Assembly: GCA_051362555.1 (NCBI GenBank) | Contig: CM120640.1 | Coordinates: forward strand, 68,302,788 to 68,366,787 | Direction of reading: 5' to 3' | From: Lingula anatina | Lineage: Eukaryota; Animalia; Brachiopoda | DNA length: 64,000 nucleotides | Shown: positions 1-61,011 of the stretch, piece by piece | Layout of the letters: each line of letters opens with the position of its first letter | How positions within the stretch are numbered: position 1 is the stretch's first letter | Position numbers and translations under genes: made by a program | Notes under the pieces: model-generated | What the model saw: the letters and a program-made list of their open reading frames with translations, nothing else | What the model was told of the DNA's origin: nothing | Databases searched by the model: none

Positions 1-934
1 GACCAGATTGTTGACTTGAAGCTGAAAGATGAGTGGGCAGACAAATGTGTTCCCAGCGGAGGGTTTGTGGAGAACAAAGACCAGCTTGGAAGACGAAATG
101 GGAATGGTATGAGATTTGTTTAACTTTTTTCTCCTTGTAGATCTGCAACCTCTGTTAATCTTTATTTTGGTAATTATTCTTGTGATTAATTAAATGTACA
201 GATGCACTTATACAACGTCCCATGTTTATTTCATGGGGGATATGTTTCATTTTATTTTTAAAAAGCAGGAAAATAGGAGAAAATGTATTTTTGTATTGTC
301 TTTCAGCTCCAAACGAAAAAATGGCTGAAGTTCTAACAAAAACTATGCAAGAAGCTAAGGATATGGTATCAAAGAAGTTGGCAAAACAAGGGGTCTGTAT
401 GACTCAGGCTAAAGTAAAAGAAGCAATAGACATTTTACGTGGAGCAGTAATGATAGTGTATCCAATGAACTTGCCTCCACACGATCCAATCAGAATGGAG
501 TTTGAGAATACTGAAGATTTGGAGGGAACACAGGTGTGTTATTAGACCTACCTGTATAATTGGTCATTTTAATCGTTTGATTCTCTTTAGTCTTTATTTC
601 TCATGATATCTTTAACTAAAATGTTAGTAAGAAACTTTACTTTGAATGTACTGTTAAGCATCTAATTAATTTTCATGAAAGGCAAATAAAACATTATATG
701 CTTTTTTTTAATGGAAAAGTTGAGGAGAGAGGTACATGTATTTTAGTTCAAAATTCATAATTTATACCAGGCTGGCCAGGAAGTGTTTTTAGAATCTAAT
801 GCATCTTTATGGTGGGCTGGAAAGGAACTGCAGAGAGGAAAAAAGTTGATGGATTTTGTTGGCAAGAATGAAAAAACAACCATTGTAGCTAAATTACAAA
901 AGGTAAAAAGATATCTTTTTATTTTAATCTCCCT

Positions 935-978
<44 letters not shown>

Positions 979-2103
979 TTTTGAAATAATTTTCATCTTT
1001 CAGAAAACTAATGAACATTATTCCATGACTGATGTCAAGTAACAGCTAATAATGAACTTATTCTTTTAATCAAGGACGTATAAGACAGTTTTGATAAACT
1101 GTGATAAAAGGATGACACTTATAACCAAAATGGATAGATCTCTGTGCTCTTTTTTGAGAAAGAAAGGTAAAGATATGTGCTTTGACTTAGTTTTGACTGC
1201 ATCATAAACCCCCTTCCTCCAATCATTGTTTATGTTTATTTCCTAGAGAGGACTTGGTGCCCCTGCCAGAGAACCAGTAGTGAGTGAGGAGGAACAGAAA
1301 GCCATGATGGCCCATTATTATAGGAAACAAGAGGAGGCAAAGGTACTTCATCTTATGATTTGAATAATATTCATATATTTTTCTAAAATTCATTTATTTC
1401 TTTGACAATTTTTTTTATTATTTTCATTTACAGTATTCTTGTTGCATGTTGGTTTTATTTCTTTGTTATTGTTATTATTATATCTTATTCATTTATTTCT
1501 TTTATTGTTGGGGCAGTCTTTATCAATCATGTTCACACAAATATTAGATTTTGTTCTATAAAAAAGCATGGAAATGCCTCCCCTATCAGGCCCGTAGCCA
1601 GCAATTTCAAAAGGGGGGTTCTTTTTCTGAAAAAGTGGACCTTTTTTTCTATAAAAACTTCATGTACCTAGATCAAATTTTACCCAGAGTGGACCTTTTC
1701 CCAGCAAAAAGGGCAGTTCTTTCGAACCCCCCGAACCCCCCCCTGGCTACGGGCCTGCCTATACTGAACTTCACAATATCTCAAACCCCCCTTTTTCTTC
1801 TGACACATATCAAACCTCAGTTGATGGTAATCATTTTTTACCTCTTTTGTTAAGATGACAGGTCAGAAACAAAATGTTTTTACAATATATCAAAATACAT
1901 GCTATTTTATTTTGAATATATAATGCTTAAATGATATATGATAAGACTTATCAATGGCTCAATCTATATTTTCTTTATCAATTTTTCAGAAATTGGAGGC
2001 AGCTGATGAGGATTCTTACTTAGATGCTAAGTGGGCAGATAATAATGAGCTCAAAAGACAATTCCAAGGATTGAAAGACATCAAATGGGGTGGCCCTCGG
2101 TGA
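1..2103 (+). CDS. CFAP298: Cilia- and flagella-associated protein 298 (C21orf59/kurly), 5'-truncated by the window edge; exons <1-106, 307-533, 771-902, 1247-1342, 1990-2103
   Basis: GT-AG splicing keeps frame and gives ...DLKLKDEWADKCVPSGG..GRRNGNAPNEKM..LRGAVMIVYPMNLPPHDPIRMEFEN..LWWAGKEL..GAPAREP..WADNNELKRQFQGLKDIKWGGPR*, matching the recalled C-terminal two-thirds of vertebrate CFAP298; TGA at 2101-2103; AATAAA at 2280-2285. Confidence 0.95.
936..975. repeat. poly-T tract (40 nt) in a CFAP298 intron
   Basis: Direct homopolymer run. Confidence 0.9.
1587..1757. mobile_element. 171-bp MITE with 15-bp perfect TIR and 5-bp TSD (hAT-like CAGG termini) in the last CFAP298 intron
   Basis: Left end CAGGCCCGTAGCCAG, right end CTGGCTACGGGCCTG; CCTAT directly flanks both sides (1582-1586, 1758-1762). 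Confidence 0.85.

Positions 2104-2892: not shown

Positions 2893-2895
<3 letters not shown>

Positions 2896-2934
<39 letters not shown>
2896..2934. repeat. poly-A tract (39 nt)
   Basis: Direct homopolymer run. Confidence 0.9.
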
Positions 2935-2936
<2 letters not shown>

Positions 2937-3708
2937 CACTGACTAAATACTTTCTGCATGCCCAAGAGGTTAACATTAATGGAAAATTGTCTTAGCACAA
3001 TGAAAACGAAGATTAAAATCTCAACCAAACCATACTTCTAATTCTGTGGTTAATCAATGGTGTAAGATGAGTTTTATCCCTTGACACCCATTCCTTTCTC
3101 ATTATGTCACATTTCTATTATGTCAATGTACATGAATGAAAAAATAATTGTCTCAGTCTCTCAGAGAAAGAACTTTAAATTCTTGTCACTGAATAAAATT
3201 GTAATCACTGGCTTTTTCATCTTTTGCGGAAATACGAAGTGCGCATGACAGGAACCGCGCGCCACAGGGGTCATAGTGGTCCTCTGCTGTTTCCAGCATG
3301 GCTATGCTAGGTGTAGATGATGTACAAGGTGCGCATATAAAAAGGTCGTATGAAGCGTGCATTGCTTTCTGTCAAACTAAAAAGGTGGCTGAAGCACAGA
3401 AATGCGTAAACTGTAGGCAAGAAACAGCTATTTGGACGGAGAATCAAGCAATTAAATATTTTCTTTCTCAGTTTAGATACGATGCGCTTTACAACTAGAC
3501 TTCACCTAAGCGTCCGAGCCTTGGCTATGGGCGGCCAAGAGGGCAAAAATTCATGTCGTCGATTCAGTTATGTTTCGTCGATTCACTGCCTTCCCATCGA
3601 TTCAGTTTCAAGTTTAAACGATCCTGTCATAAATTCAACATCTACTTTCGTCAATTCAATTGTCAAACATTTCTCATCTATGGTGTATTAAAACCAATGC
3701 TGTCACTA

Positions 3709-3838
3709 TTTTCGTCGATCGTGTAACTAATCTCGTCGATCGTCAAACTGTTTTCGTCGATCGTGTAACTATTCTCGTCGATCGTCTAATCTCGTCGATC
3801 GTGTAACTATTCTCATCGATCGTCTCATCGATCGATCG
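3709..3838. repeat. CpG-rich minisatellite, about 21-bp unit built on TCGTCGATCG
   Basis: About 7 copies of TC(G/A)TCGATCG separated by TGTAACTA(A/T)TC or TCAAACTGTTT spacers. Confidence 0.8.
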
Positions 3839-4121
3839 CCAGAGGGCGCTGCGGTAGCAACACGTGCTTCTGTCTGTCAATCACGCGGTAATTTTTAACT
3901 CGGCCAGCCATGGTCAGAGTTGGGGCCGTAGCGATAGTCCGAAGGTTCAATAGTCCGAAGGTTCAATGGTCCGAATGTGCATTGAAGGTTCATTGGTCCG
4001 AAGGTTCGATAGTCCGAAGGTTCATTGGTCCGAAGGTTCATTAGTCCGAAGGTTCGATAGTCCGAAGGTTCGATAGTCCGAATGTAGGCCCGCTGTATAA
4101 GTGTATAGTGAATTACATGTA

Positions 4122-5008: not shown

Positions 5009-7645
5009 GGGGGGGGGGTGGGGGGGGAGGGGAGGGGAGTGGGCTGTGCGAACAACAACATAGTTTGTTTGGAAATGCAATTATTCTATAACTTTTACAT
5101 AATTTAAGAAATGTGTAGGTTAGAAGAATTTGAATTCTAATCATAGTATCTTAAGACATCGTAAGAAAATGTCATTATAGGCGTCCTCTCATTTTATGCG
5201 TTCCAATCTTTATTCAATATTTCATGTGAAACATGTATGGTGTTCATGAGTTGGAAAGGGTAGCCATTGCATATCCCCAAACTTCCCCACATTGTAAAGA
5301 GTAGTTCACGGAAACAATACGACCTATATGGATAATTTTCACGTGCGTTTCGGTCGCACTCAAAACGAAATGATAAAGATTCTAGAAGCTGAGTTCACAC
5401 GAAAGTTAATCACCCCCTAGCAGCTCCAGGATTGCTAATCTGATTGCATACAGTGAGAATCCTGGTGGAGTTGGATCAATCTACGTAGAATGATAGTTTC
5501 GTTGGGAACGCACCCTTAGATTCCGTTTGTAATTATAATTCTTAAAATCGAAGAACATCTTAAAATGTTTCGGACTATCGAACCTTCGGACTAATGAACC
5601 TTCGGACTATCGAACCTTCGGACTAATGAACCTTCGGACCAATGGACCTTTAATTTTCGGACTAATGAACCTTCGGACCAATGAACCTTTTTGTTGAAAA
5701 TCTGATGAAAAATTTACGAATTTTCGGACCAATGAACCTTCGGACCAATGAACCTTCGGACTATCGAGACGCCCCCGTGGCGATATCACCTCATTTACCG
5801 GCAGTGTCAATTCATTACGATTTTTATGTCTTGTTTGAAGGATATCTTAATAGATTTTTAAAGTGATAAAATGAAAAGATTTCCTGCGTTGTTTGACTCG
5901 TAGCTACTGTGTATACAGGTAAAACTGACACGCAGATCGTTCGTCGGTGAACTGATTAAATCGTTTGGTACCTGATGAGGCATCAGGTGTTACTTGTTCA
6001 ATTGTTCGGTAAGGCGGGCGGCCACAACTACGACCTTTCCTCTGTAATTAAAACCTTTTAAGTGTTAAATAGGTGAGACAGGAATTCTCGACTCTTTCCC
6101 AGACGATAATTAAAGTTTACCGTGTCTTACTCTAGTATATGTACAAAATTTACGACAGGTAAAAAATGTCAGCCTTTCGGTCTGACAAGTATGAAAATTT
6201 TGTCAAACTGAAACAAAAACAAAGTTATAGCAAGAGGCCAAATTATTTGATTTTTAAATGTTTTCATGCGTATTTTCATCGTTTTCAATCACAGACAATT
6301 AAATCATCCAAATAAAGTGTTTCCCACACATTTAAATTCATACTTTTCAACTATCTAAGACAGTTAAATATACGTAGGCCTACTTTAATACTAAGCATAT
6401 TTGTATTACTTTACAAATACGTTGTTGGATTATGTTTATTATCCATTTTGTCTTTACCATACATGTAGACTATCATGTACGTGTAGCTTACAGAAAGGCT
6501 TTTCTGCATTTTTTGTATTTTCCAATTCTCTTGTCATTGAGTTCAAAAATAAATAACTTTTTATTTCGCCGATAACGCGTTCAACAAGAGCCGATGTACT
6601 TTCTTCTTCGTATGTCTCTGTTGATCTTGATAATATGAGCCCCGTTTGTACAAATCAGTAATAGCCTACGTATACGGGACTGAATACATAATAATAAAAA
6701 TTTTATTAACGTCTCACGTTAAAAAAAATAGAACCCACCCTGCTGAGGGTTATTAGAGACTAAAACCTGTGATGGGCCTACAACATTTAAAATGATCACT
6801 TATCAATAAAACACACACAAAAAGGATATTACATACAAAACTTTTCAAACCTTCTCTTTGTTGTTGCACAAAAAGTCGTGAAAGTTCTTGAATTTTTTGT
6901 AAGTAGAATCCCCGTGTAAAACTTCACAGCTTTTACTTTCTTTTTCCATAATCTCATGCTTGAAGTCTTTTCTTAATTTTTAGGCCCCGGCCTATTCTTC
7001 AATTTTTTCTTCAAATCTTTATAATGTTTTTTTTTCTCGCATTTTTTACCCCCGAGTTCTATTTGCCGATAGTTCGTTATATCCGTTGTTTAACTAAGCA
7101 TTTCTGTTTTTTATAAAGCACCGTTGATCTCCTAATAGTATAGTTTTTCTTCCCGCCTTCGAAATGTTCAGCGCAAACGCGGTGCCCTGCTTTTGATCCA
7201 AACCTGCTATATTTTCCTTTCTTTCTACCATATTTTTCATTCTAACGGGTTTGTTGGGAACTTATTAAACCTCATGTGTCGATCTCGCTTACTGTTATTG
7301 TAGTAGCGGGACAAAAAGCACGTAAACCCAGCCATGGTTTTTAGCACCGCTGTAAGTGTTTCGACGTAGCAGGGCTCCCCTAACCACAATGCAATTTCCA
7401 TTTCCGGAAAAGATGAAAAAGGCTAAATGGTATCAAAACAGGATTAGTGCTGTATAGGGCCCTCGTGTACTGTCCTAATACTGTGGTCCAAATAAAGCTT
7501 GTGGAAATTCTATTTCATATTGCACAGGGATAAAAATTGACGTTAGTACAAGTTTTATGACATGTCACAGGATTTCCCTGCAGGGTTTGTTGAAATCACT
7601 TTCTATATACTGTTCATTGTTGGGAGCAGTGAATAAGTCACCTAT

Positions 7646-8797
7646 ATGATCCCAGTGATGAAGGCTACCAAGAGGATTGGAATTTCAATTCTGTATCTGT
7701 GCACTGCAGCTGTGATTTTAGTGATAATTGCGATGTACAAGAAAGTGGGGACTATTTCAGTACACCAAAAGCCACTTAGCAGAAAAACCAGCATCTACAA
7801 CAGCACTGAAGTATTACCTGGTAAAAAAGTTATTCTGTTTTGGAACGATGAAAGAAAGCTTCTTCCATTTCAACCAGATCAAAACGTGGAGATATTTCAG
7901 AACTGTTCTGTAAGTGATTGTCTTTTTACGCACAATCACTCTTTTGTCAAACATGCTGCAGCCATCCTATTTCTCATCCCTCTTGCTGATATTTCTGTCC
8001 ACAAATGGCCCCCTAAGAAGAATCATCAAAGATGGGTGTTCTGGACAAGAGAACCCCCCTGCTACATTAACCCCTTCCCATCATCCCAGTGGCATGGACT
8101 AGAACAAAGCATCAACTGGACATTGACATACAAAAAAAATGCAGATATCCATGCACCATATGGCATAGTTGTACCCAGAGTTAAACCTTTGAACAGAACA
8201 TTTCTGGATGTGGCAAAGAGAAAAACCAAATTAGCATTTGCTATGATAAGCCACTGCAAAACTGGGAGTGAGAGATCAAGTTACATAAAACTCCTGAGAA
8301 AATATATGCCTGTTGATGTATACGGGAGTTGTGGTGAAATGGGAAAGAGAAATAGCACCGAGTACAATTCCTTATTTGGCAAGTATAAATTTTATTTGGC
8401 ATTTGAGAATAACTTCCTGAAGGAATATCTCACGGAGAAGTTTTTTAATACAGTCGATTACGACGTAGTGGCAGTCACCAGAGGTGGGGCAAACTACAGT
8501 GATCTGGGTATTAAACCAGAGTGGCATATTGACACTCAGGACTTCTCTTCTCCTAAAGAACTGGCTCAGTATTTGTTACGCTTGGACAAGAATGACACCC
8601 TCTATGCACAGCACCTCCTATGGAAGAATTATTATCAGATCCCTCCTGGTTGGTCATGGACTACCAATTTGTTGTGTACTCTGTGCAGTAAAGTGCACAA
8701 TACTTCTGAACCTATCAAGTGGTACACAAAACAACAGCTCATCCAGAACTTTTATGAACCTTGGTGCCAGAAGCCGAATGATCTTCCTGATCACTAG
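7646..8797 (+). CDS. Alpha-(1,3/1,4)-fucosyltransferase, glycosyltransferase family 10, type II membrane protein, single coding exon, 383 aa
   Basis: Uninterrupted ORF; N-terminal signal-anchor (IGISILYLCTAAVILVIIAMY); GT10 motifs QRWVFWTREPP, INWTLTYKKNADI, ISHC..R..Y, VDVYGSCG, YKFYLAFEN..EYLTEKF, IDTQDFSSPKELAQYL..LDKNDTLY, CTLC; AATAAA at 9073-9078. Confidence 0.93.
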   Translation: MIPVMKATKRIGISILYLCTAAVILVIIAMYKKVGTISVHQKPLSRKTSIYNSTEVLPGKKVILFWNDERKLLPFQPDQNVEIFQNCSVSDCLFTHNHSFVKHAAAILFLIPLADISVHKWPPKKNHQRWVFWTREPPCYINPFPSSQWHGLEQSINWTLTYKKNADIHAPYGIVVPRVKPLNRTFLDVAKRKTKLAFAMISHCKTGSERSSYIKLLRKYMPVDVYGSCGEMGKRNSTEYNSLFGKYKFYLAFENNFLKEYLTEKFFNTVDYDVVAVTRGGANYSDLGIKPEWHIDTQDFSSPKELAQYLLRLDKNDTLYAQHLLWKNYYQIPPGWSWTTNLLCTLCSKVHNTSEPIKWYTKQQLIQNFYEPWCQKPNDLPDH

Positions 8798-11453: not shown

Positions 11454-11842
11454 TCATCCATAGTAGTTGTTCAGACTACGTTCCCCTGGCTCGTCATCTC
11501 CTCGTAACGTGTTCCTCCCATGGAATCGCACAGGCCCTGGATCTAGGCCAACATCAAAATTGTCATAATTGCTATAGAGGTCGAAGTTGAGATCTCTACT
11601 AGGGGTAAGTCTATGATTTGCCACTGGTTCAGAAATGTCTAGTTTTACTCTTTTGTGTTTTCTATGTACGTAAGACAGTCTAACAATGATTGCAAGTAAA
11701 ACTAAAATGAGTCCTATGCAGAGGCTCACGACTAGATAAAGGATAAGTTTTTCTTGATTACCTGTAAAGAAAAAAGTCAACAGATTAAATACAGCATTTG
11801 ATGTTCAGTGTGATTCAAACTGTAAGAATGCACGCGCACGCA

Positions 11843-11874
<32 letters not shown>

Positions 11875-14800
11875 ACTGTTATTATTAAAATAACCGTAAT
11901 CTAGATTTTAATTTTGTCAAGAAAATTGCTAAGAAGCAATATATCTCCATTTTATTTAAAATTTCAAACTAATTTAAATTAATCTTACAAATACCAGACT
12001 GTCAAAACAAAGGTGAAATAACCTGCACATTCAATCTGTTATAAAAGTATTTATATTCACAGCATGTTTTAACCACCTTTTACCCATACTTACTATCTAA
12101 ATACTGTTTAGTGTTGATCCAGTCAACAACAAATCCTATATGATCTCGGTCTCCTCTTGTTTTACTTTCTGCTATATGTATCCCCTCTGTGTAGTTGATA
12201 CAGATGGTAAAGGTGGACATGTTTGGACTACTGGTGGTGGCAGGTTCACTGGCTTTAGGTGCGGCTGAAAGCAAAAACAATATATATGTGAGATGAAGTG
12301 TAAACAAAATAGCATGAAGATTTTTAAAAACTTATATTAAGAATTTTATTAGCAATAGCTCACAATTCATATTCAATATTGAGGCAAGAACCAAAAATAA
12401 TTAAATTTTTGAAGCTAAATTCATCAAATCGATATAATAACACAGATCAAAACATTACATGAAACTGACCCATTCAACATTATTTTTAATGTTTTATATT
12501 AAAGGACAACAAGAGATTGCCACTGAGCAGTATAACCTCTCTCAGGTTATGGATTCTCACATACCAACCTTTTTCCCTGGATGGAGATTCAGTGAACAGC
12601 ACATGTTGAAATTTTGTATTGACATATGCTGGTAGTTTATCTGCACTTCCACTCGGTGACTTTCCATTATTTAAGTCATAACCAGAATTATGTCTTCCTC
12701 TCTGCTCATTCTCATTATTTTCCCCGCTCAACTCAGGCCCTGAATTCCCCCCTCCTTCGTAGAAATAGTCTTCGTCCCTGGGATTTGAAGTGGGGTCCAC
12801 AGGGTGTGATGAGTCTGGAGACCTTCCTCTTCCATTATTTTTTCCTCCTCTTCCTCCATGATTGTCATGTCTGATCTTTGTTGTTGGGATGGTTGTACTG
12901 GTGACAGTTGTAGATGGCGTTGTAAACAGGGATTCAATATTAAATCCCTTCTTCATGACTCTCTTTGGAACTGAAGCAAACAGCACACAAATTATACAAT
13001 GATGTATGACATTTTATATCTTAAAATAAAAAGATGGACAAAATGCATAAAATGCATGGAATGTTGAGGTATGCTACTTAACAGACATGATTTCAGGTTT
13101 AAAGAAAAAGTTAAGAAGAAATATTATGGTGGCCTTAAAGCTAGGGGTCTAAGAGCTGTTCACAGGAACACTGCCTTGGAAAATAGGATTTCCTACTTAA
13201 ACTGCAAACAAGGCAGCAAAGCTGTCAAATGTACAGACAAAGAACAGAAAATAAAGATGCAAATAAGTGAAAAATTAAATTTTCACAAAAAACTGTTAAA
13301 TTGCCAGAAAAATTTACCAAACAGACTGCATTGCCTATTAAAGCTGTATTTTAGTGCCATGTTTCTTTCCTATAAGTTTGAGAACAGTAAGTGACATGAT
13401 TTCCCTTAAATGGTCATCATAGGAGCAGTGCCCAAAATAGGGGTTTCTTCAAATTTTGATACAACATTAAATAATGTTTAACAGCATAATGACAATCAAA
13501 TGTTATTAATAAAATATTAGTAACATGGACATTCAGAAAATGTGACAAGCAAAAGTCTTCAAGATCATGGAACTTTAAAGTCACACCATGAAAATGCCAA
13601 TATGTGAAAAATTAAATTTTCACAAAAAACTGTTTAACTGCCAAAAAAAAAAAAAATAAATAAAAATAAAAAAAATTAAAAAAAAATACCAAACAGACTG
13701 CATTGCCTACTGAAGCTGTATTTTAGTCCCATGTTTCTTTCCTGTAAGTTTGAGAACAGTAAGTGACATGATTTTCCTTAAATGGTCATCATGGAAGCAG
13801 TGCCCAAAATAGGGGTTTCTTCAAATTTTGATGCAATATTACATAATGTTTAACAGCTTAATGACCATCAATTTTTAATAATAAAATATTTGTATCACAG
13901 ATATTCAGAAAATGTGACTAGCAAAGGTCTTCAGGCCCATGGAACTTCAAAGTCACGCCTTGAAAATGCCAAAATGTAAACAAGACAGCACTGTTCTGAA
14001 ATGGGTTTATTTCCATTTTTAACACTTTTTTAACATAAAACAAAATAAACATTTTACTGCCATTTTTATATGACCAACTAAAAAAATTGATGAGATGGGA
14101 AAAGTATCAATAGAACAGTGTTAAATGTCCAATATCCTCCATTCTGAGATTCTGAACATAGTGGATGATTGAATCTGACAAACTGCAATGATATTAGTTT
14201 ATTTCCATTTTTGACACTTTATTACACAATACATGATAACAAGTTTACCATGTTTTTTACATAATCAACTAACAATGTTGTAAAGATGCAGGAAATATCA
14301 AACAAACACTTTTAGGCATCTTATTAGTTAAATAATGAGACTGTTAACATGCTTAAGAATTGAATCTGAGGAAATGTGAAAAAAACAGTATAACTTCTAA
14401 AATAATGGCCCGATTATGCTGATTTTCGAACTCAACCTGCGTTTTAGTAAGATTGACCACTCCTGTGAGTATAATTACAATTGGCCAATCCGTTTTTCTT
14501 ATATTGTGTTATCAGTGTTGCATTTATATTGAAAATAGTGAAAAAACAGCATAAATTCCCTCAAAATAGCCCAATCATGCTGATTTTTGAACTTGACCTG
14601 CGTATTATGAATATTCATCAGTTCTGTAAGTTTCAAGTCAAAAGGTAAAATGGTTTTCCACTTATCGTGTTATCGGTGCTGCATATATGCTGAAAAAAGT
14701 GAAAAAACTGCATAAATTCCCTAAAAGTGACCCGATCATGCTGATTTTCGAACTTGACCTGCGTATTATGAATATTCATCAGTTCTGTAAGTTTCAAGTC

Positions 14801-17800: not shown

Positions 17801-18156
17801 GAAATTTCCTGAGGGGTTACACTGTAATCATACTGGGGTGAGCAATAAATACATATCATTAATCACAACTGCTTATTTTTACAAACAAGATGTCTAATTC
17901 AAGAGTGAGCAGATTTAAACTAAAGATTAAAACCCCGAACTGTGCTTTTTTAAGTAGATTCAATTTTTTTCTTACAGTTGACTTACTAGGAACACACTTG
18001 TAAGCCACTTCCAAGTATTTGCTGGTGCCGGGACAGGGGTCCTTTCCAAATGTGGTGGTAGTGGCATGGAGAAAACAGTGGCGTTTGTTTTCACAGACAT
18101 CTAATAGCACCTGCAACATAACAACAGTAATCATAAGTTATACGTTGATGAATATG

Positions 18157-18250
<94 letters not shown>

Positions 18251-26040: not shown

Positions 26041-26087
<47 letters not shown>

Positions 26088-47836: not shown

Positions 47837-48200
47837 CTTCGGCGAGTTGAACCTCAAAACAAAATTATCCGTTTAATCAGTCGAGGTATTCCTCGCAGTC
47901 TTGGGCGTATTTCCATATTTCTATAGTCAATAGAGAATCCTAGAAAATGAATAACATTACGTTTCGCACTGGAAAAGTGCTGGTCACACTTTACTCTTAA
48001 CCCCGTTCAAGAAAAGCGGCTGTCATTGCAATATAACCCACCACCGCCGCCGTACTGTTGTGTACACTAATGTCACTGCTTTGATCATGCGCGTGCTCCG
48101 GACTGAAGTGGGCGGAGCTCTGCAAGTAAACAGACAGGTTCGTAGGAAAGTGCCCGTTTTAATAATGACAAAAGACAATCTTCTAGAGAGATCGGCACAC
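47837..48200 (-). promoter_or_regulatory. Probable EVA1 5' UTR/promoter (CpG-rich, GC box)
   Basis: Sharp rise in CpG density upstream of the ATG; GGGCGGAG near 48110. Confidence 0.55.
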
Positions 48201-48609
48201 CACACAATCAATTTTGAACGGCCTTGTTTATTATTGATTGTTCTTTGATTTTTATTTGCGAAATCGTTGATTATAACTGTGGAGAAATTATTCTACCGTT
48301 TTGAACAGAAACATTGGTTAATTGCACTTTTGTGCAACAAGTTGGGTAAACTTTACTATATTACGATTAGTTTACTTTTGGTATGGATTTATCAGCTTTC
48401 ACCCCAAATGTAAACTGCATCGAGACGAGGAAAATGAAATAATCATAAGAAATTATTTTCGCATCTCAAACGTAATCAAAATAATACCAGTCAAAATCAG
48501 CCTTAACCCAGTGGAAGAAATATTTTTCTTGGCGCCTACGTCATTATCGTACGTGACATACACACTGTAGACCGACACAATCACGCCAATGGTCTCTCTT
48601 GAAATAAGA

Positions 48610-48787
48610 GTTTTGACTAGCTGAATCATAGTTTTAAACCTTACCAAATGGCACCTTTCGTCCTCTAAAATATCAGAAAATTTGTGACCCTTCGCCGGGG
48701 GGGAGGGGGGGGGGGGGAGAGGATCGGATTCGCATCTGCGGACCCCCCCACCCCCACCCCCTTCAAATAATCCTGGATCCGCCTCTG
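48610..48787 (-). mobile_element. Truncated MITE of the CAG(A/G)GGCGGATCC family
   Basis: Reverse complement of 48757-48787 is CAGAGGCGGATCCAGGATTATTTGAAGGGG, matching 4122-4151; G/C-run interior. Left boundary approximate. Confidence 0.6.
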
Positions 48788-51700
48788 GTATGTCAATTTC
48801 CGAGCAATTATTAATAGCCAAAATACCAAAAAGTATTATTATTTTGCATTAAGGCAATGTTTAGGCCTACCTGTGGCACGATGGCGTAGTGTTATTTATT
48901 TTCAATGGCAAAAATATAAGATGGCGTCTGAAAGCAAGAGAGTGACAAAGTGACATTTTCACCCCTTAAAATCCAATCCTTTCCAATATTGTCCTCTCAC
49001 AAGTATGGGTCATATGATCACCTCACTTTAATAACCCGTATATTCTGTCTCTGGAATTCCTTTGTCGACACAATCCCAGACTTCACAATATCATGTCGTA
49101 TTGTGCAATATTTACACGATCTTAAAGTTGACAAAACGCTAGTTTCACATTCCCAATTGTCAAACTATATAGATAGACCCTTTGGTCTCGACTTTTTTTG
49201 CAAACTAGTTTGCGATGTGTGGTTACTCTTCTGTGATTTCTGCACCGGAAAAAATATTTTCACAGTCTACATCATTGATAACTTTGGTTCGATGAACGAG
49301 TATCCTATTTCAGGGATCCATTTCCTTATACTAAATGACCCTTAAAATACTCGCCTGGATAGATGTACGTGTACTTGGATGCTGTTTGATAAACCAGTAG
49401 AAATTTATATTCTAAAACAGCGATGCTACGATAAAAATGATAGTAATATCAATATACGCGGTGCGAGCTCCTTAATGAAAATGAATTAGAAGCAGCAATG
49501 TGAAAATGAACTCGACAAACTTCGTAATTTCTCTTACAAAATGGCAAAATAGCACAAACGGTAGTTAATAGTGTAGATAATAAGGCAGTCGAACAGACTG
49601 CATTTTTACCAAAGTTTTTCAAGAAAAACTGAACAAAAGTTTTTTTCCCTTGTTTCATTTTTGAGAACAATCATAACTGTTTGATATTCGTTTTTTTTCC
49701 AGAATCAGGGTACACAGGAAATGTTACCAACATATCCTATTCCGCCTACTCAAATGGCGTCAACTGGCAGCAAATATTAAAACGACGGAATAATTTACAG
49801 GATGTCGCTGGAGATTTTAAGCCCCAGCAATCCTTTTGACAAATCTTTCTTCCCACCTGCACCCACATCAAGTCCAAGTCTTCACCTTGGCTTACTCGTC
49901 ATTGTTACCCGTGGATGTGATCAACCTGTTATGTAAAATCAATATCTTTGGCTTTTGATGCAAGGTCAAGTCAAATGTGCAACCCATAACATGAACTTAC
50001 ATGCACCTAGGGTGAGCTCTTTTAAGCTTCAAGAAAGAATATTTGATATATTGGGTTATTATATTTGATTTAAACCGGTAGGAAGTCCAGAAAAAATGAC
50101 AAAAAGGATATATGACGAACAGACTGCTTCATTAATGAAAGTGGTTATTCTATTCGCGTTTCTATTTTCTCTCACCTTTTTTTCTTTTCTTTACTAATAG
50201 GGCGATTTTTTCAGTATTCATATAAGACCATGAAAATTTACTGTCTGCAACAAATCGAGGTTTTGAATTACAAGCCCAAAGGCTTCATATATCTAACATT
50301 GGAAGATCGTTATTTTTTTCCGTTGCGTAACTGATTAGCAGATCCCCCGATAAGATCTGATGAGAACTGACAAAGTCAGTCGAAAATTTGACAAAGAAAA
50401 AAATGTAAGTAAAAATGTAAGTACTCTGTACTTGTTACTATTTGTGACATGATAAAAATACCATTCGATGATCGGGCTAAAGCATATAACACCAAATGTT
50501 AGAAGCAACAATGTGATTATCGCTAGATTTTGGACAAAGTGTCCTTTTTTCATGTCAACAATTTCTTTATTCCAGCCTACGTCATCTGCAGATATTTTAG
50601 TCACCTGACTTAAACTGTCCAATTTTTGACGATAACTCGAGATGAGTTTAAAGCAGGTACAGCTAAACCTCCGACAGCGAGCGGAATGATGAACCCGTTG
50701 TTAATAACAGGACATTCCACTTTCCTTGCCTATAATTGTCACGAATATGTTTTAACCCCCAGGTGAAAGCGCGGGGTGCAGACGAGTTCAGGTAAATTAA
50801 TTTCTTAAACTAAGAATGAAGTCTGACAAATGACCTCCCACGTAAGACAATTAAATTCATTATAACGTCTCCCCGAGCGTTTTCTTCCCCTTAACAGTAC
50901 GAGTCTGTTGTTTTTGTAAATGTGACTCCGCGTATCGGAACTATCCCTGAGGTAAATGCAAGCAGATGAAGCGGAATTTCAGTTGACAATATAGAAATTC
51001 AACAATACAGTTATTGATATAAACTGTAATGGGGATGATGCCAGCCTGGCGTGCCTATGTAGAGCGCTACAAGGTTCAGCGTGCGCCAGACAAATTTTAT
51101 CGGTCAGACTTAATTTCTACTCGCTGCAGTGTGTGCTCTCACTTATCGTGTATTATTGTTTGAAATGATAATATTTGCCAAATAACAGTTGTTTCTTTCT
51201 TTCACGTGCATACAAAACAAGCGCCACAGACCCGATTAAACAAGGTATAGTCAAGCGTTAAGTCAATTACTTTCCCCAAAACAAAAACATGTCAAAGGGA
51301 GTGGGCGACTTCTAATTTTCCAATAACGAGAATATTGCTTTCCGCCCTACTTCTCTGGCATGTGGCGAGGAAAACAGTCGTGATTTATTAATAAATTTCT
51401 CCAGTTTGGTTTTGACAATGTCAAAGCTAACAAGCTCTAAATCCAAATGATTTATATAAAAAATCAGTTAATCTCCCACGCCCTTTTAATTGTATCAGGA
51501 ATGAGCAGAAATTATTTAATGGTAAAATAAAGAATGTTTTACTATCTTGAAATGCATATCAGGGAACACAAATATGTAAATGTCAGTGTCAGTTCACCTG
51601 CTTCATTAAAAACGTAAACATTATAAAGGCTATGGTCTAAGAAGTCGTAACATGACCGACAAGAAAGACATACAGGAAGCCCCACTGAAGGAGTGGGGCT

Positions 51701-53334: not shown

Positions 53335-56300
53335 TTACTGTAACAAATGTCTGTGTGCCATGATTTCAGCAGTAGAGAGTGGTCTGGAATCCTGATTAAG
53401 TCTCCTAATTGGTGGGTTATTTCCTGTGGCTGGCTGCCTACTCCTCCTAGCTACCGCCATCACAGCTTTCCTTTCTTTACTGGCTTCAGCAGTGGTCTGG
53501 GCCTGGCGCAGTTTGATCTCAAAGTCGCTCATCCCTGACCCTGGCTTTGTCGGTGAACTCACTGGGGCCGAGGTGCTTGGGCAATTCTCTGGGTTTTCTA
53601 TGTCTGGTACTACTTGCAAAGGACCTGTTAGCATTGTCATAGACTTCCTAGAAAAAAAATAAAATAAAGGTGAGTTCATGCAACTTGGAAGAATTTTTCT
53701 GTCTCGTACAAACTGTATAAAAGCAATGTTCAAAATACTGCCTTGCCTCTTGTTACAGATATAATACAGACTTCTGTTACCATGTGTTTATGATAGCACT
53801 AAGAGATTCCAGAACTTGTCCAGCTGTCAGTCGAACTTTAGGGTCTAGCACCAGCAAACGTTTTATCAACATCACAGCACTGTCTGAGACACGCCCATCA
53901 CTGAAAATGAATCAAAATTGTCTACTTACATTTGTGACTATAAATTTATGTTTTCTGAGGCTTTAAATGAGCATGAAAAGCGATTCAATAAATTCCATGT
54001 GAAATATCAACTTTTCAAATGAGGTATTTTTATTGTCAAAAAAAAAACTTAGTTTACCAGATTAAAACTGCTCGCTTACTTTGGAATTGTAAAATCTGCA
54101 GCCTTTATTTTTCTAAACAATTCTTGTGGCACTTGGTCATAGAATGGGAACTGTCCATACAGCATAGTAAACAACACAACACCCAAAGCCCATAGGTCAC
54201 TGGGTTTGCCCAAGTAAGGTTTGCCTACAAAATTGTGTTAGGTGAGACACATTAGAAGATATCTCCTCTAACACATTCTTCCATTAGTTTCTTGATTAGA
54301 ACTACACAATTCTGCCTCCTATTCTAAAAATGAATGAACATGTGGCAATGCTTTAAAAAACTAAACAAATCCACAGAGATTTAAAGCTACTTACATTGTT
54401 CTCTGGGTCTCTCTTTTAACATAACTAAAACATATATTAGTATATCAACCTTACCACTTAACACATCAGGGCTGATGTAAGCTGGACTGCCTCTTTGATC
54501 CTTGAGCAAATCATGTTCAGATATCAAATGTTTCCCCAAACAAAAGTTTGTGATTATCACTCGCCTCGTCCTTGTGTTTAGCACCATGTTTCCCAGTTTC
54601 AGATCTCTGTGAACTATGTTTTTCTAAAAAAATATTGTAGAGGGATAAACATTACAAAAATACAACATGTTTTAAATCTATTAATTCTTATCTTCACTTT
54701 TCATGCCAAAAATCAGTTAAATGTATTATTCAATGACAGGTCAACCCAAGATGTAAATGATAATATCTTTACCAACTGAAATAAATTTCATTCAAAATAT
54801 GTAAATTCCAACTTACCTTGTGCAGATTCTCAACAACTTTGACAATTTCAAAGAAAATTTCAATGGCTTCTTTTTCTGAGAGTTTCTTCTCCTTAATAAC
54901 ATAATGCTGCAGATTAATCAGGTCAATGTTTTTGTTGCTAAAGTCATGAGGCGTCAAACAATCAAGAACCAGACAAAGACGAGTGTGCTTCTTTGGTGGG
55001 TTGCCTGCATCATCTGATTCTTCATAGGCCATATCCTACATGAAAATCAATGAAGTTTACTCAATCCACAGGTGAAAAAAAGTTTGAACTTGACATTCAT
55101 ATTTTATAAATGTTGATGTCACACTTATTCCTCCTCCATGGGATATCTTATAACAAAAACATTTTTACCCTTATCGGTCCTTTATTAACTGTCACACAAT
55201 TCAAAAGGATAAATTATATGGAGCATGACATCATAATGACCTAGAGCCATTCATAGAAGATAGAAGATCCCAGGATGTTCTGATAGATCTGAATGGGCTC
55301 CTAGTCAATATAAAGGAGGTACTGTACCTTGAAGAGCCCATGGTGGTGCACCACCCCCTGTTGGTTGTGTAACAAAGACAGCAAGGAATACTCTGTATGC
55401 AGCAACATCTTCCCCTGTCTGTCATCCTGGGTCTCCTTGTCTTTGTCTGGCATGGTCAGAATCTAAACGGCATAATGCAAACAAGGGAACTTAAAGAGGA
55501 CTAAAAATTAAATGAGGCATATCCTAAGTAAAAAATGCCTTTTTATTGTGTAATATGTCCATAATCCTCAACGGTAAACCTTGTACAAATGGTGCAAATG
55601 TGTCTTAGCTTAACTAGTTGTTGGTCCTGTTGAGAATTATATCATTATAATATACTTTTAAAGAATACAGTATTTATTTTCAATGGGGAAAATAATCAAT
55701 ATTTCAAATACATTATTATGGAATGATATAAAATATAATTTTGTGTAGCGCATGTGGTGCCTTTACAGACTAGACCAGAACTACAGGGTAGCTTCCTTTC
55801 CAATTTTGTTGCAACCATTCAATAAGAAATTAGAATGTTTCAATTTTAAGAATTTATGACTTAAAAAATACACTATCTAAAAAAGATCATAATTTCCCCA
55901 TTGAATCTGAAAAGATCCAGTCAATGTTGCACCTAAGATTGCAATCACTTATCTGTAAAACTTCCATACCTTTAGAGTGTAGAAGTCATCCGTGCCATCT
56001 TTTCTAGCCAGACACTGAACAACACTCCTTACTGGGGAGCTTCCAAGTCTTGGTCCTAATAACATGTAAAATACATTCAAACTTCTTCCTTGTTATCCTT
56101 ACAACTGCTAAATTTACATATTTCCTCATATTCTACACATTATTTTTCTAGAACAGACTCTCCATGACTGCAGGTGCTTTATATTCTATTGTCAGTAAGA
56201 TGTTGGACAATAGGTCTATGCACTTTGAGTACTGTGGTGTCGGCAACTCTGAATCTTCATGTTAAAGCCCCCTTTCTATCAAATAATATCCAAAATGTAA

Positions 56301-56642
56301 TTTAATATTCTAAATATACTTTATGGCTATACATTAAGATTTCCTTAATATAGTAAAAAAAATGTGAAAAAAAAGTCAATACACTTATCTTTTACAAATT
56401 TTATTAGAAAAAAAAAGACTAAATAAATGACTATTAAAGCAAAAGCATTAAAAAATTATCTTCCTCTACAAATACTATATATATATTGTACTGCAAACAT
56501 TTATAATAGTAACTTTGCAATTTAAAAAAGTATTACCCAGAAGATATGGACCTGCCCTCTTCACAGAGGAATTGGGGGTTTGTAACCTCAGTGCTTTAGG
56601 ATTTGGAATACCCTCATCCTTCTCTTCATTGTGCCTCTTCAT
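53335..56642 (-). CDS. STK40: Serine/threonine-protein kinase 40 (Tribbles-related pseudokinase, COP1 adaptor), about 430 aa; coding exons 56642-56537, 56055-55970, 55462-55328, 55035-54817, 54623-54455, 54224-54080, 53900-53781, 53647-53335
   Basis: In-frame GT-AG splicing (1293 nt): KRAGPYLLGPRLGSSPVRSVVQCLARKDGTDDFYTLK, QGKMLLHTEYSLLSLL, HRDLKLGN, ITNFCLGKHL, DQRGSPAYISPDVLSGKPY, GPLQVVPDI; in-frame stop upstream of the ATG. Confidence 0.96.
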
Positions 56643-57510
56643 TTCATTAGTGCAGATTACGTTATTTTATTCCTCATTTTACCACATAATGGTTCCACTC
56701 CTCATTCTTTTCTATACCTCATCTCTTTATGATACCTAAAAAGAAAAATAATACCAGTTTTAGTGCTGGGATGACCTTAAACACATTGAACATAGTCCTT
56801 CTGAATATATATGCATGTCACCTCTACTGGTAAGATTAGAAAAAATCCATGCACTAGAAAACTTTTTTACATTCTTATCTGTATTTTGAATCATACACAT
56901 GCTATCAATGGGGCAATGACCACAACAAACAGAATTCTACTGGTAAATTCGACATAAATATGTTCAAAATTGTTTCCACGCGGAAACAAACTCTTGAATA
57001 ATCATGTTGGCCATGCAACTTCCACGGTATGCAGTGGAAGGTTGTTTGGTAACAAAATATTGCGATGTATTATCCCATGAATTGAATTCTGTGCTACCGG
57101 CAGCTGCTATATATACAGTGTACCACCATCAGGAGGCATGACACAAAAAGGCATTATTTAAAGAAAATGTTAATGGCCAAACGTAACTGCCAGTTAAATC
57201 TCCAGAGCTTAAGTTGTACATCCGTGTACATCACACATCTACAGTCTACATACAATTACCAATTATTCGGAATACTTCTGTTACAAGTACAGTACAGTGT
57301 ACATTGCAGTACTGTACATGTACCCCAGTACATGTACTGTACATGCATGAACATCTGAAGTTCAGGTGCCCGGTGCTCGGGATAAACAGATAAAGAATGA
57401 TATAGACAGTTATATGCTGGTTTCCATTTGTCACACCGGTTATATTACAGTAAATAGATAGTGCAAAATATCACCGCAAAACTGATTTTACAAGACTTAA
57501 TCTCTCTCAC

Positions 57511-57767
57511 CTGTAACCTTCATCTTAACACTAAGATTTGTAGTTTTCAGATACCCCGATAGGCGGACACCTAAGATAAGCCAATATAACTGTGCTTTCT
57601 ACTGCTTTCCGAGATCCTTTTAAAAATTACTATTTGAAATATCTTTCTAAATTTCCAAACAATCTTATAAAAGGGTGGTATTTGACAGGTCTCTTGATCG
57701 TGTTTTCTGAAATATGTTTCAACTCTACGACATAGAGCGCCATCTATTGACAAAAGTGCGTTTAAGC
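57511..57767. promoter_or_regulatory. Bidirectional promoter and non-coding first exon of STK40 (donor at 57510) shared with MRPL19
   Basis: Minus-strand donor AG|GTGAGA at 57511/57510; MRPL19 ATG at 57768; CpG-rich; AGCGCCATCTATTG (CTCF/YY1-like) at 57736-57749. Confidence 0.65.
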
Positions 57768-59239
57768 ATGGCTTCTCTAAAAACGTCGTGCCGAGTGTTG
57801 CAAACATCAAGACATTTACCAGGTAAAGCCTCCGCTGCAGTGCATATGTTTATGTTTACAAGGAGTTTGCATGCGTAAGATATAAAAGAATCTGATTAAT
57901 GTTATCTCCCTCTACTCTTTCTCCTGACATTTTCAAGTAGATTCGGGTTTTAAAATCTGACTGCACTACAAAGCACTGCAATTACATAGAATGAGAATAT
58001 TACAGGGGATTTAGTAAATTTAGCCTATGTACCGAAACTTGTAATTGGATAATCTGCAAGGAAAGACATCGTTTATTTTTTATGGAGGCTTTAAGCTCAA
58101 TTATTGGATTCGGTTTCACTGTTTATTGGTTCTAACTTCTAGCACATCTACATGCATTTTCATTTTTGTATTCACTGTTTGGTAAGTCTTAAATTGCTGA
58201 TGAAGCTCAGGGTCAGATCTCAGTATTTTTAATATCTTTTTATGAGCAACACTCTCTTGATCTATTTGTAAATACAAAAAAAAAAGGCCAAAGGGTTTTA
58301 TTGGCAAATGAGTTTTGAGAAGTCTGAACACTCATTATCAACTGTATGAATTGTCCTGCTCATCAACATCACAATCAGTAGCAGTTTCAAGTATGTAAAG
58401 TTTTTACTTTATTAAACTGTTAGTGGTTCCTAGTCTGACACTTACTCACCCAATAAGTACAACCAAATTCTTGTGCTTAAGACAGGAGACGAAGTGCTAG
58501 AGACAGAAGAGTTGGACCTTACTGTGTTATTTTAATTTTGCATTTCAGTGTTTAACCCACGTGCCTTCTACAGATCCTATGATAGACCACAGAAAGGCCA
58601 TGAAAAAGTTCCAAGCTGGACCATAGAAAAACATCGGGATTCTCCTCTAAATGCCACCAGGGTTGAATCAGAGAGATTGAGACATGCTGCACCTACAGAG
58701 TTCAGGTTTGAAAGACCAGTATTTTAGGAAATAATCTTTCCAAGCAAATGATTTATGCACTCCATCTGTGACTAGTTGATATGGGCAGAACAAGTAAATG
58801 TTATAATTACTTCCTGTATGAAAATATTTCCAAGGTTTTTCACAATTTTCGTTTAAGATTTAACTTGGGTACTGATAGATGACAGCTACTTCAAATTATG
58901 CCTTGTGGTACCTTCTGTACTTCAGTTGTTACAGTGGTACAGTGGCAGCAACAGAAAGAATAACAGTAACTATTTTTTTTTTCAAAGAGCTTTAATAATC
59001 TTGAGAGCCTTCTTAGTGAAGTCCATAATCCCAGATTGATAAGTTATCTAAAAAAATATATTCTCAAAGTCTTTATAAACTAGACATTGATTGTATTTGT
59101 CCAATTAAACAAATACAAACTATGTGAAATCTGTTTACAACCTAGAGTGATATCTTAACTGGTACCAGGGAATGATGCCACATTTGTCTGGAGCAGTCTT
59201 AAAACTGTGTTCTGTATCAGATAATATGGTAAACCACAT

Positions 59240-59279
<40 letters not shown>

Positions 59280-61011
59280 CTAAGGGGAGAGTCATCCATT
59301 GTCCCAGCTGATCAATTGACAGATTAATAAGACATAACAACACCTGAGTAAAACTTATCACTCCATGTCCTGATGCAGACTGATAAACTTAGTTGAAAAT
59401 TTGACAAGACAAAATGTGAATGATATAATTCGTTGTGATATGATGAAATGACAAGATGCAATAGATATTATGCAAGACCCATTTATAATGCCACAACTTT
59501 AATCAACTTTCAGGTACATCTTCCCTGAATTTTTACCACATCCAGATTGGAAAAAGAGGGATCGCGTAGCAGAAAAATTACAACGTAGGGACATGCTACG
59601 AAGAAGGCTTGTGTTAGATATTCCAGAATTTTATGTAGGTATGTAGGAAAATTTTGACACACGTACACACACATCATCATCATCATCATCTTGACAGTAC
59701 TATAAAAATAACCTTAAACCATTTTGAAGATAATTTTCATGTACATTATAGGCTCAATCTTAGGAGTAACTGTAGCAGATCAGCATGTGCCTTCCAAGCA
59801 GAGCAGATTTGTTGGGATCTGCATTCACCGAGATGGTCATGGCTTACGGGCAAACTTCACTCTGAGGAACCACATAGATGGACAAGGTACTAGTACCAAC
59901 AGAGAAAATTCTAAAGTAACATTTTGAATTAAGTTTTGCAACAGCTAAAATACACTTGGGGGGGGGGGGGCACAGTAGTTTGAGAGAACTGGCCTTTTTG
60001 GCCTAAAAAAGGCCACCCCTAGTCACAAAATATGATTTAGGTTCTGCGCCACCTGTCAAGTTGGGTCAGCTAAGGGGATAGAAATGTCCAAGTTTTGAGA
60101 AAAAGAAAACCCCACTCTCCTTTTAAATTGTTTGCTGCAGGCCTGACGGCCCTTGACTTGAATTTGAATATTTGATATGACCAGAGAAATTTATTCATTT
60201 GCAGTTTGAATGATGATTGCTGACAGTTTCACCATTTTGCTATCTTCATAAAAAAGTTAAATATAATGGAGATTTTTTCTTTCTTTCTGAAATGATTAGG
60301 TGTGGAGATCAAATATGACCTTTATAACCCCACATTGCAAAATATAGAGGTGTTGAAACTAGAGAAAAGATTAGATGAGGAACTGTTCTACTTGAGGGAT
60401 GCACCTGCGACACACAGCACTATAACTTTTGATCGTAAACCGGAAACTCTTCCACTTGGGGCCACAGTGCCAGTCAACATGAAAAAGGTAAGGTTAAACA
60501 CCTGAAAACATTCTTTGGTAGAGCTCTGAATTATCTTGGTGAAATGTGTTTTTTGTGGTCTCTCATGTTAAGTTAGTAAAAAAAAATGATCTGATGTTTA
60601 TGTATCAGCAAGTAAGAACATGGTTTGAATCTTTAAACTTACTTTTTTCATAAACATCTATTAAGGAGCATATAAATATATGTTCAAAGTTTATATAATT
60701 ATCATATGGTTATCAGTTTGAATTACTGAGTTTACCGAATGATTTTGCAGATCCCCTTGAATCCGCCACCTTGGACACAAAGATGGGAAAAGAGGGAGGA
60801 CCTTAAGGGAATAGATCTGCCAGAGCTGCCAGAAAAGCGAATGCGTAAATTAGCACAAATTGTTAAACCATGGGAAAAGTATGACCTTATGAAGGAATAC
60901 AGAAAAAATATTTCAGAGGAGGAGCAAAATGAAATATTTAAAGAAGTTGTTCAACATCACACACGTGTTGAAAAGAAACGCCATCAGGAAAGACTAAAAC
61001 GGATGACATAG
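57768..61011 (+). CDS. MRPL19: Mitochondrial large ribosomal subunit protein bL19m, about 306 aa; exons 57768-57822, 58549-58705, 59514-59638, 59752-59886, 60300-60487, 60751-61011
   Basis: In-frame GT-AG splicing (921 nt); N-terminal Arg/Ser-rich targeting peptide; motifs PEFLP, DMLRRR..LDIPEFYVGSIL, FVGICI.R.G.GLRANFTLRN, GVEIKYDLYNP, LEKRLDEELFYLRDA, PWEKYDLM. Confidence 0.95.
59242..59278. repeat. poly-G tract (37 nt), G-quadruplex capable
   Basis: Direct homopolymer run in MRPL19 intron 2. Confidence 0.85.

What the first reader, a model, noticed from the sequence alone, without database searches (positions are those of the whole stretch)
1..61011. Apparently intact pre-duplication gene block CFAP298 - EVA1 - STK40 - MRPL19 that vertebrates split among three EVA1 paralogues
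Seen: order and orientation CFAP298(+) [FucT] EVA1(-) STK40(-) MRPL19(+). Recalled human arrangement: EVA1C (chr21q22) is tail-to-tail with CFAP298; EVA1B (chr1p34) lies just downstream of STK40 on the same strand; EVA1A (chr2p12) is head-to-head with MRPL19. All three relative orientations are reproduced here around one EVA1 gene. Inference: this window keeps the ancestral four-gene microsyntenic unit, and after vertebrate genome duplications each EVA1 copy kept a different neighbour. It would also imply that lectin-less EVA1A/B are ohnologues derived from a SUEL-bearing EVA1C-like ancestor, and that linkage may be held by shared regulation (a genomic regulatory block around an axon-guidance receptor). 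I do not know whether this block has been described.
Basis: partly seen in the sequence, partly recalled or inferred. Interest (0 to 1): 0.85.

Follow-up and report, generated by a model that had tools for sequence, protein, structure and literature searches.

The report
Ancient gene block split among EVA1s
A lamp-shell genome keeps one intact EVA1 receptor gene flanked by CFAP298, STK40 and MRPL19, the three genes that each sit beside a different human EVA1 copy, so it likely preserves the neighbourhood that vertebrate genome doublings dealt out, and it points to mammalian EVA1A being a receptor that likely lost its sugar-binding domains late.

Summary
CFAP298(+), a single-exon fucosyltransferase(+), EVA1(-), STK40(-) and MRPL19(+) have open frames and AG/GT junctions and are transcribed. 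The animal is the brachiopod Lingula anatina, not a mollusc.

Human EVA1B–STK40 and EVA1A–MRPL19 adjacency, and the horse order EVA1C, CFAP298-TCP10L, are in print. Only EVA1A's strand was confirmed; the others are recalled. A published table pairs EVA1A with EVA1B, EVA1C and a fourth amniote gene as ohnologues. My trees make vertebrate copies one clade.

Corrections: the ancestor was not specifically EVA1C-like. Fish, bichir and swan EVA1A keep two SUEL domains, and a fourth SUEL-bearing copy exists. STK40's RNA 5' end lies 227 bp from the MRPL19 start codon, which suggests a shared promoter.

Untested: the block in any other invertebrate, and the regulatory-block idea. One published reconstruction puts STK40 on another pre-duplication chromosome.

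Verdict: a real, likely undescribed instance of a known phenomenon, ancient microsynteny fractionated after genome duplication.

The parts
1..2103 (+). CFAP298 (C21orf59), last five coding exons: <1-106, 307-533, 771-902, 1247-1342, 1990-2103; 5' part lies outside the window
   Evidence: open frame and AG/GT junctions; Pfam PF11069; joint 902/1247 in RNA
7637..8797 (+). Single-exon GT10 alpha-fucosyltransferase between CFAP298 and EVA1; likely a later insertion (inferred)
   Evidence: Pfam PF00852 and PF17039; plus-strand RNA depth in 3 of 4 runs
11454..47836 (-). EVA1: exons 47836-47731, 29483-29266, 18110-17987, 17474-17328, 15447-15304, 12970-12569, 12264-12094, 11761-11454; predicted signal peptide, two SUEL lectin domains, Ser/Thr/Gly-rich stalk, one membrane helix, FAM176-like tail; 539 aa
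   Evidence: Pfam; RNA joints exons 4-5, 5-6, 6-7; homologues; trees
47501..51500 (.). CpG-rich stretch (observed/expected 0.7-1.1) covering the EVA1 start and its upstream region, up to the STK40 3' UTR; holds a high-copy repeat at about 48200-49300
   Evidence: CpG profile; DNA depth about 10,000-13,000 in two bins
53335..56642 (-). STK40 coding region, 8 exons, 430 aa; 3' UTR reads reach the 51510-52060 bin
   Evidence: PDB 5l2q E 1e-28; 5 RNA joints shown
57509..57541 (-). Non-coding first exon of STK40, spliced to about 56738; molecules end at 57541
   Evidence: joint 56738/57509 in run X15, loose ends in X12 and X15, end cluster of 5 molecules in X12
57542..57767 (.). Divergent gap between STK40 and MRPL19, likely a bidirectional promoter; CpG o/e 0.78 against 0.06-0.54 in the other bins from 52001 to 60000
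57768..61011 (+). MRPL19 (bL19m): exons 57768-57822, 58549-58705, 59514-59638, 59752-59886, 60300-60487, 60751-61011; 306 aa
   Evidence: PDB hits; plus-strand RNA depth

Best explanation
The window holds an intact, transcribed CFAP298-EVA1-STK40-MRPL19 run in Lingula that likely preserves the order of the last common ancestor of protostomes and deuterostomes, and the two vertebrate genome doublings likely copied it four times and then deleted redundant neighbours until each surviving EVA1 kept one. Shown: the Lingula genes and order; mammalian adjacency of the three pairs; EVA1A/B/C plus a fourth amniote gene listed as ohnologues; SUEL domains in fish, bichir, swan and lamprey EVA1. Inferred: EVA1A kept MRPL19, EVA1B kept STK40, EVA1C kept CFAP298; the SUEL ectodomain was lost separately in EVA1B (early) and in mammalian EVA1A (late); the fucosyltransferase is a later insertion. 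The likely glue is partly mechanical: STK40 and MRPL19 point away from each other across 227 bp or less, so a break between them would cut a shared promoter, and duplication released this by reciprocal loss. The links to EVA1 are most simply slow rearrangement; a regulatory block is possible but untested.
For: Gene models and RNA. Human EVA1B 36,787,632-36,789,755 and STK40 36,805,225-36,851,497 with only RP11-268J15.5 listed between them. [quoted passage not shown] Horse list URB1, EVA1C, CFAP298-TCP10L, SYNJ1; human EVA1C and CFAP298 both in 21q22.11. Sacerdot 2018: EVA1A-EVA1B, EVA1A-EVA1C and both A and C with a fourth gene are ohnologue pairs (4 of 5 pairs of this tree seen), on pre-1R chromosome 12 with the GCFC2/PAXBP1 pair. 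Vertebrate EVA1s form one clade against protostomes in three trees, 100/98 to 100/100. Chance of three neighbour matches: 2e-10 genome-wide; 8e-6 if shuffled within a 600-gene linkage group, or about 0.08 expected cases over 10,000 starting genes without orientations and 0.01 with them (round input figures). Swan EVA1A has 2 SUEL stretches and an 83% identical tail to baboon EVA1A; in two loach species the 205-aa 'homolog A' isoform is the exact C-terminal end of the 473-aa 'homolog C' isoform.
Against: No second invertebrate was seen with the block: 0 of 24 metagenome STK40 loci showed a neighbouring block gene, on contigs of only 1.2-6.2 kb. Sacerdot 2018 places STK40 on pre-1R chromosome 11, EVA1 on 12, and splits EVA1A/B and EVA1C into two pre-1R genes, which would fit a tandem duplication before the doublings. 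Scerri 2012 calls MRPL19 and C2ORF3 'head-to-head'; read literally this turns MRPL19's 5' end away from EVA1A and breaks the recalled orientation. The (A,B),(C,D) pairing is not established: A+C is not rejected, p-AU 0.13, and A and B are unresolved in the tail tree. No amphioxus, tunicate or echinoderm sequence was in any tree. The Lingula tail is only 17-27% identical to vertebrate tails.
Confidence: 0.8

Rival explanations
1. The block is ancient, but EVA1 was duplicated in tandem in the chordate or vertebrate stem into an A/B-type and a C/D-type gene before the genome doublings, so EVA1C is not a doubling copy of the same gene as EVA1A/B.
For: Sacerdot 2018 lists EVA1A+EVA1B and EVA1C as two pre-1R genes on the same chromosome 12. 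C+D form a group apart from A in three trees (89/79, 97/89, 86/90). Hagfish has a short A-like and a 531-aa SUEL-bearing gene.
Against: The same paper lists A-C as an ohnologue pair. Four jawed-vertebrate types were found (A, B, C, D), the number two doublings give, and C+D is also what the first doubling would produce.
Confidence: 0.1
2. The linkage is held by a genomic regulatory block: enhancers for EVA1 lie in or around STK40, MRPL19 and CFAP298, and survive in vertebrates where the bystander gene was deleted. This adds to the best explanation and concerns only why the block lasted.
For: EVA1 spans 36 kb with 18-kb and 11-kb introns and a 4-kb CpG-rich upstream region, the target-plus-bystander layout of Irimia 2012 (abstract). 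The human EVA1A-MRPL19 interval carries a 9-10 kb H3K4me1 region, where STK40 would have stood.
Against: No conserved non-coding element or enhancer was tested. Only 5.5 kb separates the EVA1 start codon from the STK40 stop, and STK40's introns are short. EVA1 is a receptor, whereas block targets are mostly transcription regulators. Each vertebrate copy lost two of three neighbours.
Confidence: 0.2
3. The match is coincidence or faulty recall: genes of one ancestral linkage group were shuffled into this order in Lingula only.
For: No other invertebrate tested; most human strands recalled; STK40 assigned to another pre-1R chromosome.
Against: All three adjacencies have printed support; about 0.01-0.08 such cases expected per genome under the most lenient null.
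Confidence: 0.08

Closest known systems
Conserved ancestral microsyntenic pairs (Irimia et al. 2012, PMC3514665)
   Same: Unrelated genes linked across bilaterians; a 5'-5' pair under 1 kb apart is that paper's signature of a bidirectional promoter, which STK40-MRPL19 meets here.
   Different: STK40 and MRPL19 are on different human chromosomes, so the pair is visible only through EVA1 paralogues. None of STK40, MRPL19, C21orf or FAM176 occurs in the main text; the supplementary pair list could not be read.
Vertebrate ohnologue tetrads and post-duplication fractionation (Sacerdot et al. 2018, PMC6193309)
   Same: EVA1A, B, C and a fourth gene are listed as ohnologues on pre-1R chromosome 12.
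   Different: That work gives no gene order within pre-1R chromosomes and puts STK40 on chromosome 11; the Lingula order suggests STK40 belonged beside EVA1.
EVA-1/EVA1C family: two SUEL domains, one membrane helix, FAM176 tail (C. elegans EVA-1 as SLT-1/netrin co-receptor is recalled)
   Same: Domain order; 40-55% SUEL-region identity to other lophotrochozoan EVA1s and 36-44% to fish copies.
   Different: The Lingula tail scores below Pfam's FAM176 cut-off, lacks the vertebrate acidic and helical tail segment, and shares its last residues most closely with EVA1A and lamprey EVA1. Ligand binding untested.
Genomic regulatory blocks
   Same: Large-intron developmental gene beside compact housekeeping-type genes.
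   Different: No conserved enhancers shown; target is a receptor; intergenic gaps are short.

Membership tests
Ancient bilaterian microsyntenic block | Orthologous, unrelated genes adjacent in the query genome | tested here: met
   one GT10 gene intervenes
Ancient bilaterian microsyntenic block | Same adjacencies in a distant lineage (vertebrates, via paralogues) | tested here: met
   (papers' passages and tables)
Ancient bilaterian microsyntenic block | Same relative orientations in human | tested here: inconclusive
   EVA1A minus strand confirmed; the other five strands recalled; one paper's wording conflicts
Ancient bilaterian microsyntenic block | Present in several invertebrate phyla | tested here: inconclusive
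   0 of 24 short STK40 loci show a neighbour; no animal genomes held; supplements blank or unreadable
2R ohnologue family (EVA1A-D) | Copies on paralogous segments, listed as ohnologue pairs | tested here: met
   IDs for EVA1A and EVA1B checked, EVA1C ID recalled but in the same gene tree
2R ohnologue family (EVA1A-D) | Duplications after the split from invertebrate chordates | tested here: inconclusive
   vertebrate copies monophyletic against protostomes; no amphioxus or tunicate row
EVA-1/EVA1 receptor family | Two SUEL domains, stalk, single membrane helix | tested here: met
EVA-1/EVA1 receptor family | FAM176 domain above Pfam's curated cut-off | tested here: inconclusive
   27.8-28 bits against 31.5, E 2e-6; mollusc homologues carry PF14851 in precomputed hits
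EVA-1/EVA1 receptor family | Slit or netrin co-receptor activity | not testable with these tools
   function recalled from nematode and mouse work; no call
Bidirectional promoter pair | Divergent starts under 1 kb apart, both transcribed | tested here: met
   227 bp from STK40 RNA end cluster (5 molecules, one run) to MRPL19 start codon
Bidirectional promoter pair | Co-regulation from shared elements | not tested
   no expression series or reporter data
Genomic regulatory block | Conserved enhancers in bystander genes driving the target | not testable with these tools
   no chromatin or cross-species non-coding data

The most novel reading that the evidence does not exclude
This is an undescribed pre-bilaterian-split regulatory block whose four vertebrate copies record the order of losses. 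The human EVA1A-MRPL19 interval, which carries the 2p12 dyslexia-associated SNPs and an H3K4me1 region, is the deleted STK40 position with its EVA1 enhancers left behind. Mammalian EVA1A (TMEM166), studied as an ER autophagy protein, is the recently truncated tail of a lectin guidance receptor that fish and birds still make whole.
Probability: 0.15. Interest if true: 0.75.

Novelty: new member of a known kind. Interest (0 to 1): 0.47.

Why it matters
It gives local gene order where ohnologue reconstructions give only chromosome membership, and it is a compact case of reciprocal neighbour loss, including a likely shared promoter dissolved by duplication. It suggests the published placement of STK40 on a different pre-duplication chromosome is wrong. 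It recasts EVA1A and EVA1B as truncated receptors: fish and bird EVA1A models encode a lectin ectodomain that mammalian EVA1A lacks, which bears on using fish eva1a as a model for mammalian TMEM166. The phenomenon itself is well known, which caps the interest.

Tried and rejected
No whole genome is held for this window. A homologue search with EVA1 exon 3 gave 0 of 24 candidates at E<=1e-8. The metagenome scan kept 80 loci; I dropped 56 generic kinases (44% identity or less) and tested the 24 STK40 loci: 0 of 24 showed MRPL19, EVA1 or CFAP298, and the contigs are too short for this to count as absence. The prokaryote-genome scan gave 80 loci, none an STK40 orthologue. No RNA holder was listed by the index; RNA came from raw-read runs with the same species label. 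Print searches with no relevant paper: EVA1A+B+C+synteny 0; three of STK40/MRPL19/EVA1/CFAP298/C21orf59/microsynteny 2, unrelated by listing; EVA1 evolution terms 13, none on this by listing; microsynteny+Lingula+amphioxus 2, unrelated by listing; product-name pairs 0; EVA1A+EVA1C+lectin+phylogen 0. Supplements searched by gene name with no hit: Singh 2015, Sacerdot 2018 (it uses Ensembl IDs), Luo 2015 (its microsynteny Tables 7-9 were not read), Lamb 2021, Simakov 2020. Unreadable: Irimia 2012 supplement, PMC11445378 supplement, Makino 2010; these may hold the pairs or strands. Earlier scan notes: nothing. A recalled CTCF-like consensus gave 12 matches against 4.7 expected, 2 of 100 shuffles reaching 12; the site beside MRPL19 has 2 mismatches: a lead only. 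Rejected: mollusc origin; Lingula EVA1 as a specific EVA1C orthologue; the 288-aa database model as the whole gene. Atlas searches agreed on family only.
Full report
What is in the window. The DNA is animal, 36% G+C and CpG-depleted. The last EVA1 exon is 100% identical to a Lingula anatina protein, so it is a brachiopod. Exon models give five open frames with canonical junctions: CFAP298 (+, partial, to 2103), a single-exon GT10 fucosyltransferase (+, 7637-8797), EVA1 (-, 47836-11454, 539 aa), STK40 (-, 56642-53335) and MRPL19 (+, 57768-61011). Identities rest on Pfam and PDB sequence matches. None of 75 other open frames tested matches Pfam. RNA reads show 5 of 7 STK40 coding joints, 3 of 7 EVA1 joints and 1 of 4 CFAP298 joints among the rows displayed. 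The exon 5-6 joint ties the SUEL exons to the stalk and membrane exons, so the 288-aa database model without lectin domains is incomplete.

STK40 has a non-coding first exon spliced from about 57509 to 56738, with five molecules ending at 57541 in one run. That is 227 bp from the MRPL19 start codon, in a CpG-rich patch. Irimia 2012 treats head-to-head gaps under 1 kb as the mark of a bidirectional promoter (passages). Co-regulation itself was not tested.

Vertebrate neighbourhoods. A table in PMC11445378 gives EVA1B and STK40 about 15 kb apart with one RP11 transcript between them and no strands (passages). PMC3509064 places SNPs in the intergenic region between FAM176A (EVA1A) and MRPL19/C2ORF3 and notes an H3K4me1 region there (passages). 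PMC6872820 gives EVA1A on the minus strand (passages). PMC12340361 lists horse URB1, EVA1C, CFAP298-TCP10L, SYNJ1 (passages), and PMC12779367 puts human EVA1C, CFAP298 and TCP10L in 21q22.11 (passages). The other five strands, and TCP10L lying between EVA1C and CFAP298, are recalled. PMC3509064 calls MRPL19 and C2ORF3 head-to-head; literally that contradicts the recalled MRPL19 orientation. I recall the two as convergent, but PMC5545717 did not settle it (passages).

Chance. With round figures, three neighbours each falling within two genes of some human EVA1 has probability 2e-10 genome-wide and 8e-6 within a 600-gene linkage group. Over 10,000 starting genes that is about 0.08 expected cases, or 0.01 if the recalled orientations hold (the 0.08 is that call's p times 10,000). 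Shared descent is therefore the likely reading even without a third genome.

Ohnologues. In the supplements of Sacerdot 2018 (rows seen; passages), EVA1A pairs with EVA1B, with EVA1C and with a fourth amniote gene lacking a human descendant, which also pairs with EVA1C. I saw 4 of the 5 pairs of this gene tree. The EVA1A and EVA1B IDs were checked; those of EVA1C, STK40, GCFC2 and PAXBP1 are recalled. Against the simple story, that work lists A/B and C as two pre-1R genes on chromosome 12 and STK40 on chromosome 11, and says order within these chromosomes is unknown.

Family history. A search with the chiton homologue returned 77 proteins and one with a short fish isoform 126 representatives. 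Trees of the SUEL region (29 rows), the tail (32 rows) and whole proteins (18 rows), each a hand-picked subset, separate all vertebrate copies from protostomes with 100/98 to 100/100 support. Four jawed-vertebrate types appear: A, B, C and a fourth seen in carps, catfishes and chimaera (si:ch73-335m24.2). Lingula plus C is rejected (p-AU 6e-7), protostomes plus C marginally (0.04), A plus C not (0.13). No amphioxus or tunicate was available.

Lectin loss. Swan EVA1A (480 aa), bichir and loach EVA1A carry two SUEL stretches, lamprey and chimaera proteins at least one; baboon EVA1A, two EVA1B and a hagfish protein carry none. The swan tail is 83% identical to baboon EVA1A, 47-52% to B and 41-43% to C. 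In two loaches the short 'homolog A' isoform is the exact C-terminal 205 residues of the long 'homolog C' isoform. Among representatives sorted by tail motif, 0 of 30 B-type and 4 of 38 A-type had SUEL matches, and 0 of 28 mammalian A and B cluster members did. These are mostly predicted gene models, so absence is weaker than presence. I infer that EVA1B lost the ectodomain early and mammalian EVA1A late. The ancestor had the full architecture, and EVA1A is at least as close to it as EVA1C.

What was not shown. No other invertebrate was seen with the block: 0 of 24 metagenome STK40 loci, all 1.2-6.2 kb, showed a neighbour, and catalogue supplements were blank or unreadable. The regulatory-block idea has only circumstantial support.

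Novelty. Six full-text searches found no description of the block or of the EVA1A lectin loss. Subscription papers and the Irimia pair list were out of reach, and synteny browsers would show it to anyone who looked. For Singh 2015 and Lamb 2021 I saw only supplement search counts; for Luo 2015, Simakov 2020 and Braso-Vives 2022 passages, plus counts for the first two. It is a new instance of a known kind: ancient microsynteny dealt out after genome duplication. Interest 0.47.

Noticed in passing
window 61535->63200, minus strand: Calcyphosine-like EF-hand gene, tail-to-tail with MRPL19 and transcribed; human MRPL19 has GCFC2 on that side, so the shared block ends at MRPL19.
   Followed up: partly
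window 11454-12970; P0001: Database model LOC106153196 (288 aa) lacks the signal peptide and SUEL exons; RNA joins exon 5 to exon 6, so the model is truncated.
   Followed up: yes
P0266, P0055, P0057, P0069: A fourth SUEL-bearing EVA1 paralogue in chimaera, carps and catfishes, absent from human; may be the fourth amniote ohnologue in Sacerdot 2018.
   Followed up: partly
P0293, P0319: Hagfish have a short lectin-less EVA1A-like model and a separate 531-aa SUEL-bearing one, hinting at another independent truncation or a partial model.
   Followed up: no
window 3171-3804, minus strand: Stranded transcription in 2 of 3 stranded runs with loose read ends at 3526 and no Pfam match in frames tested; a repeat or an exon of an unmodelled transcript.
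   Followed up: no
window 13200-15090 and 48200-49300: A heavily transcribed repeat with a 161-bp tandem array in EVA1 intron 5, and a very high-copy repeat just upstream of EVA1.
   Followed up: no
window 54455-54623, minus strand: STK40 keeps the catalytic-loop HRD but has NFC at the DFG position, as in the human pseudokinase.
   Followed up: yes
window 57737-57750 and 3836-3849: Matches to a recalled CTCF-like consensus (2 and 1 mismatches); 12 matches in the window against 4.7 expected.
   Followed up: partly
human 2p12 and 21q22 (recalled order): GCFC2 lies 5' of EVA1A but its ohnologue PAXBP1 lies 3' of EVA1C, implying a local inversion in one copy; the pair itself is.
   Followed up: no
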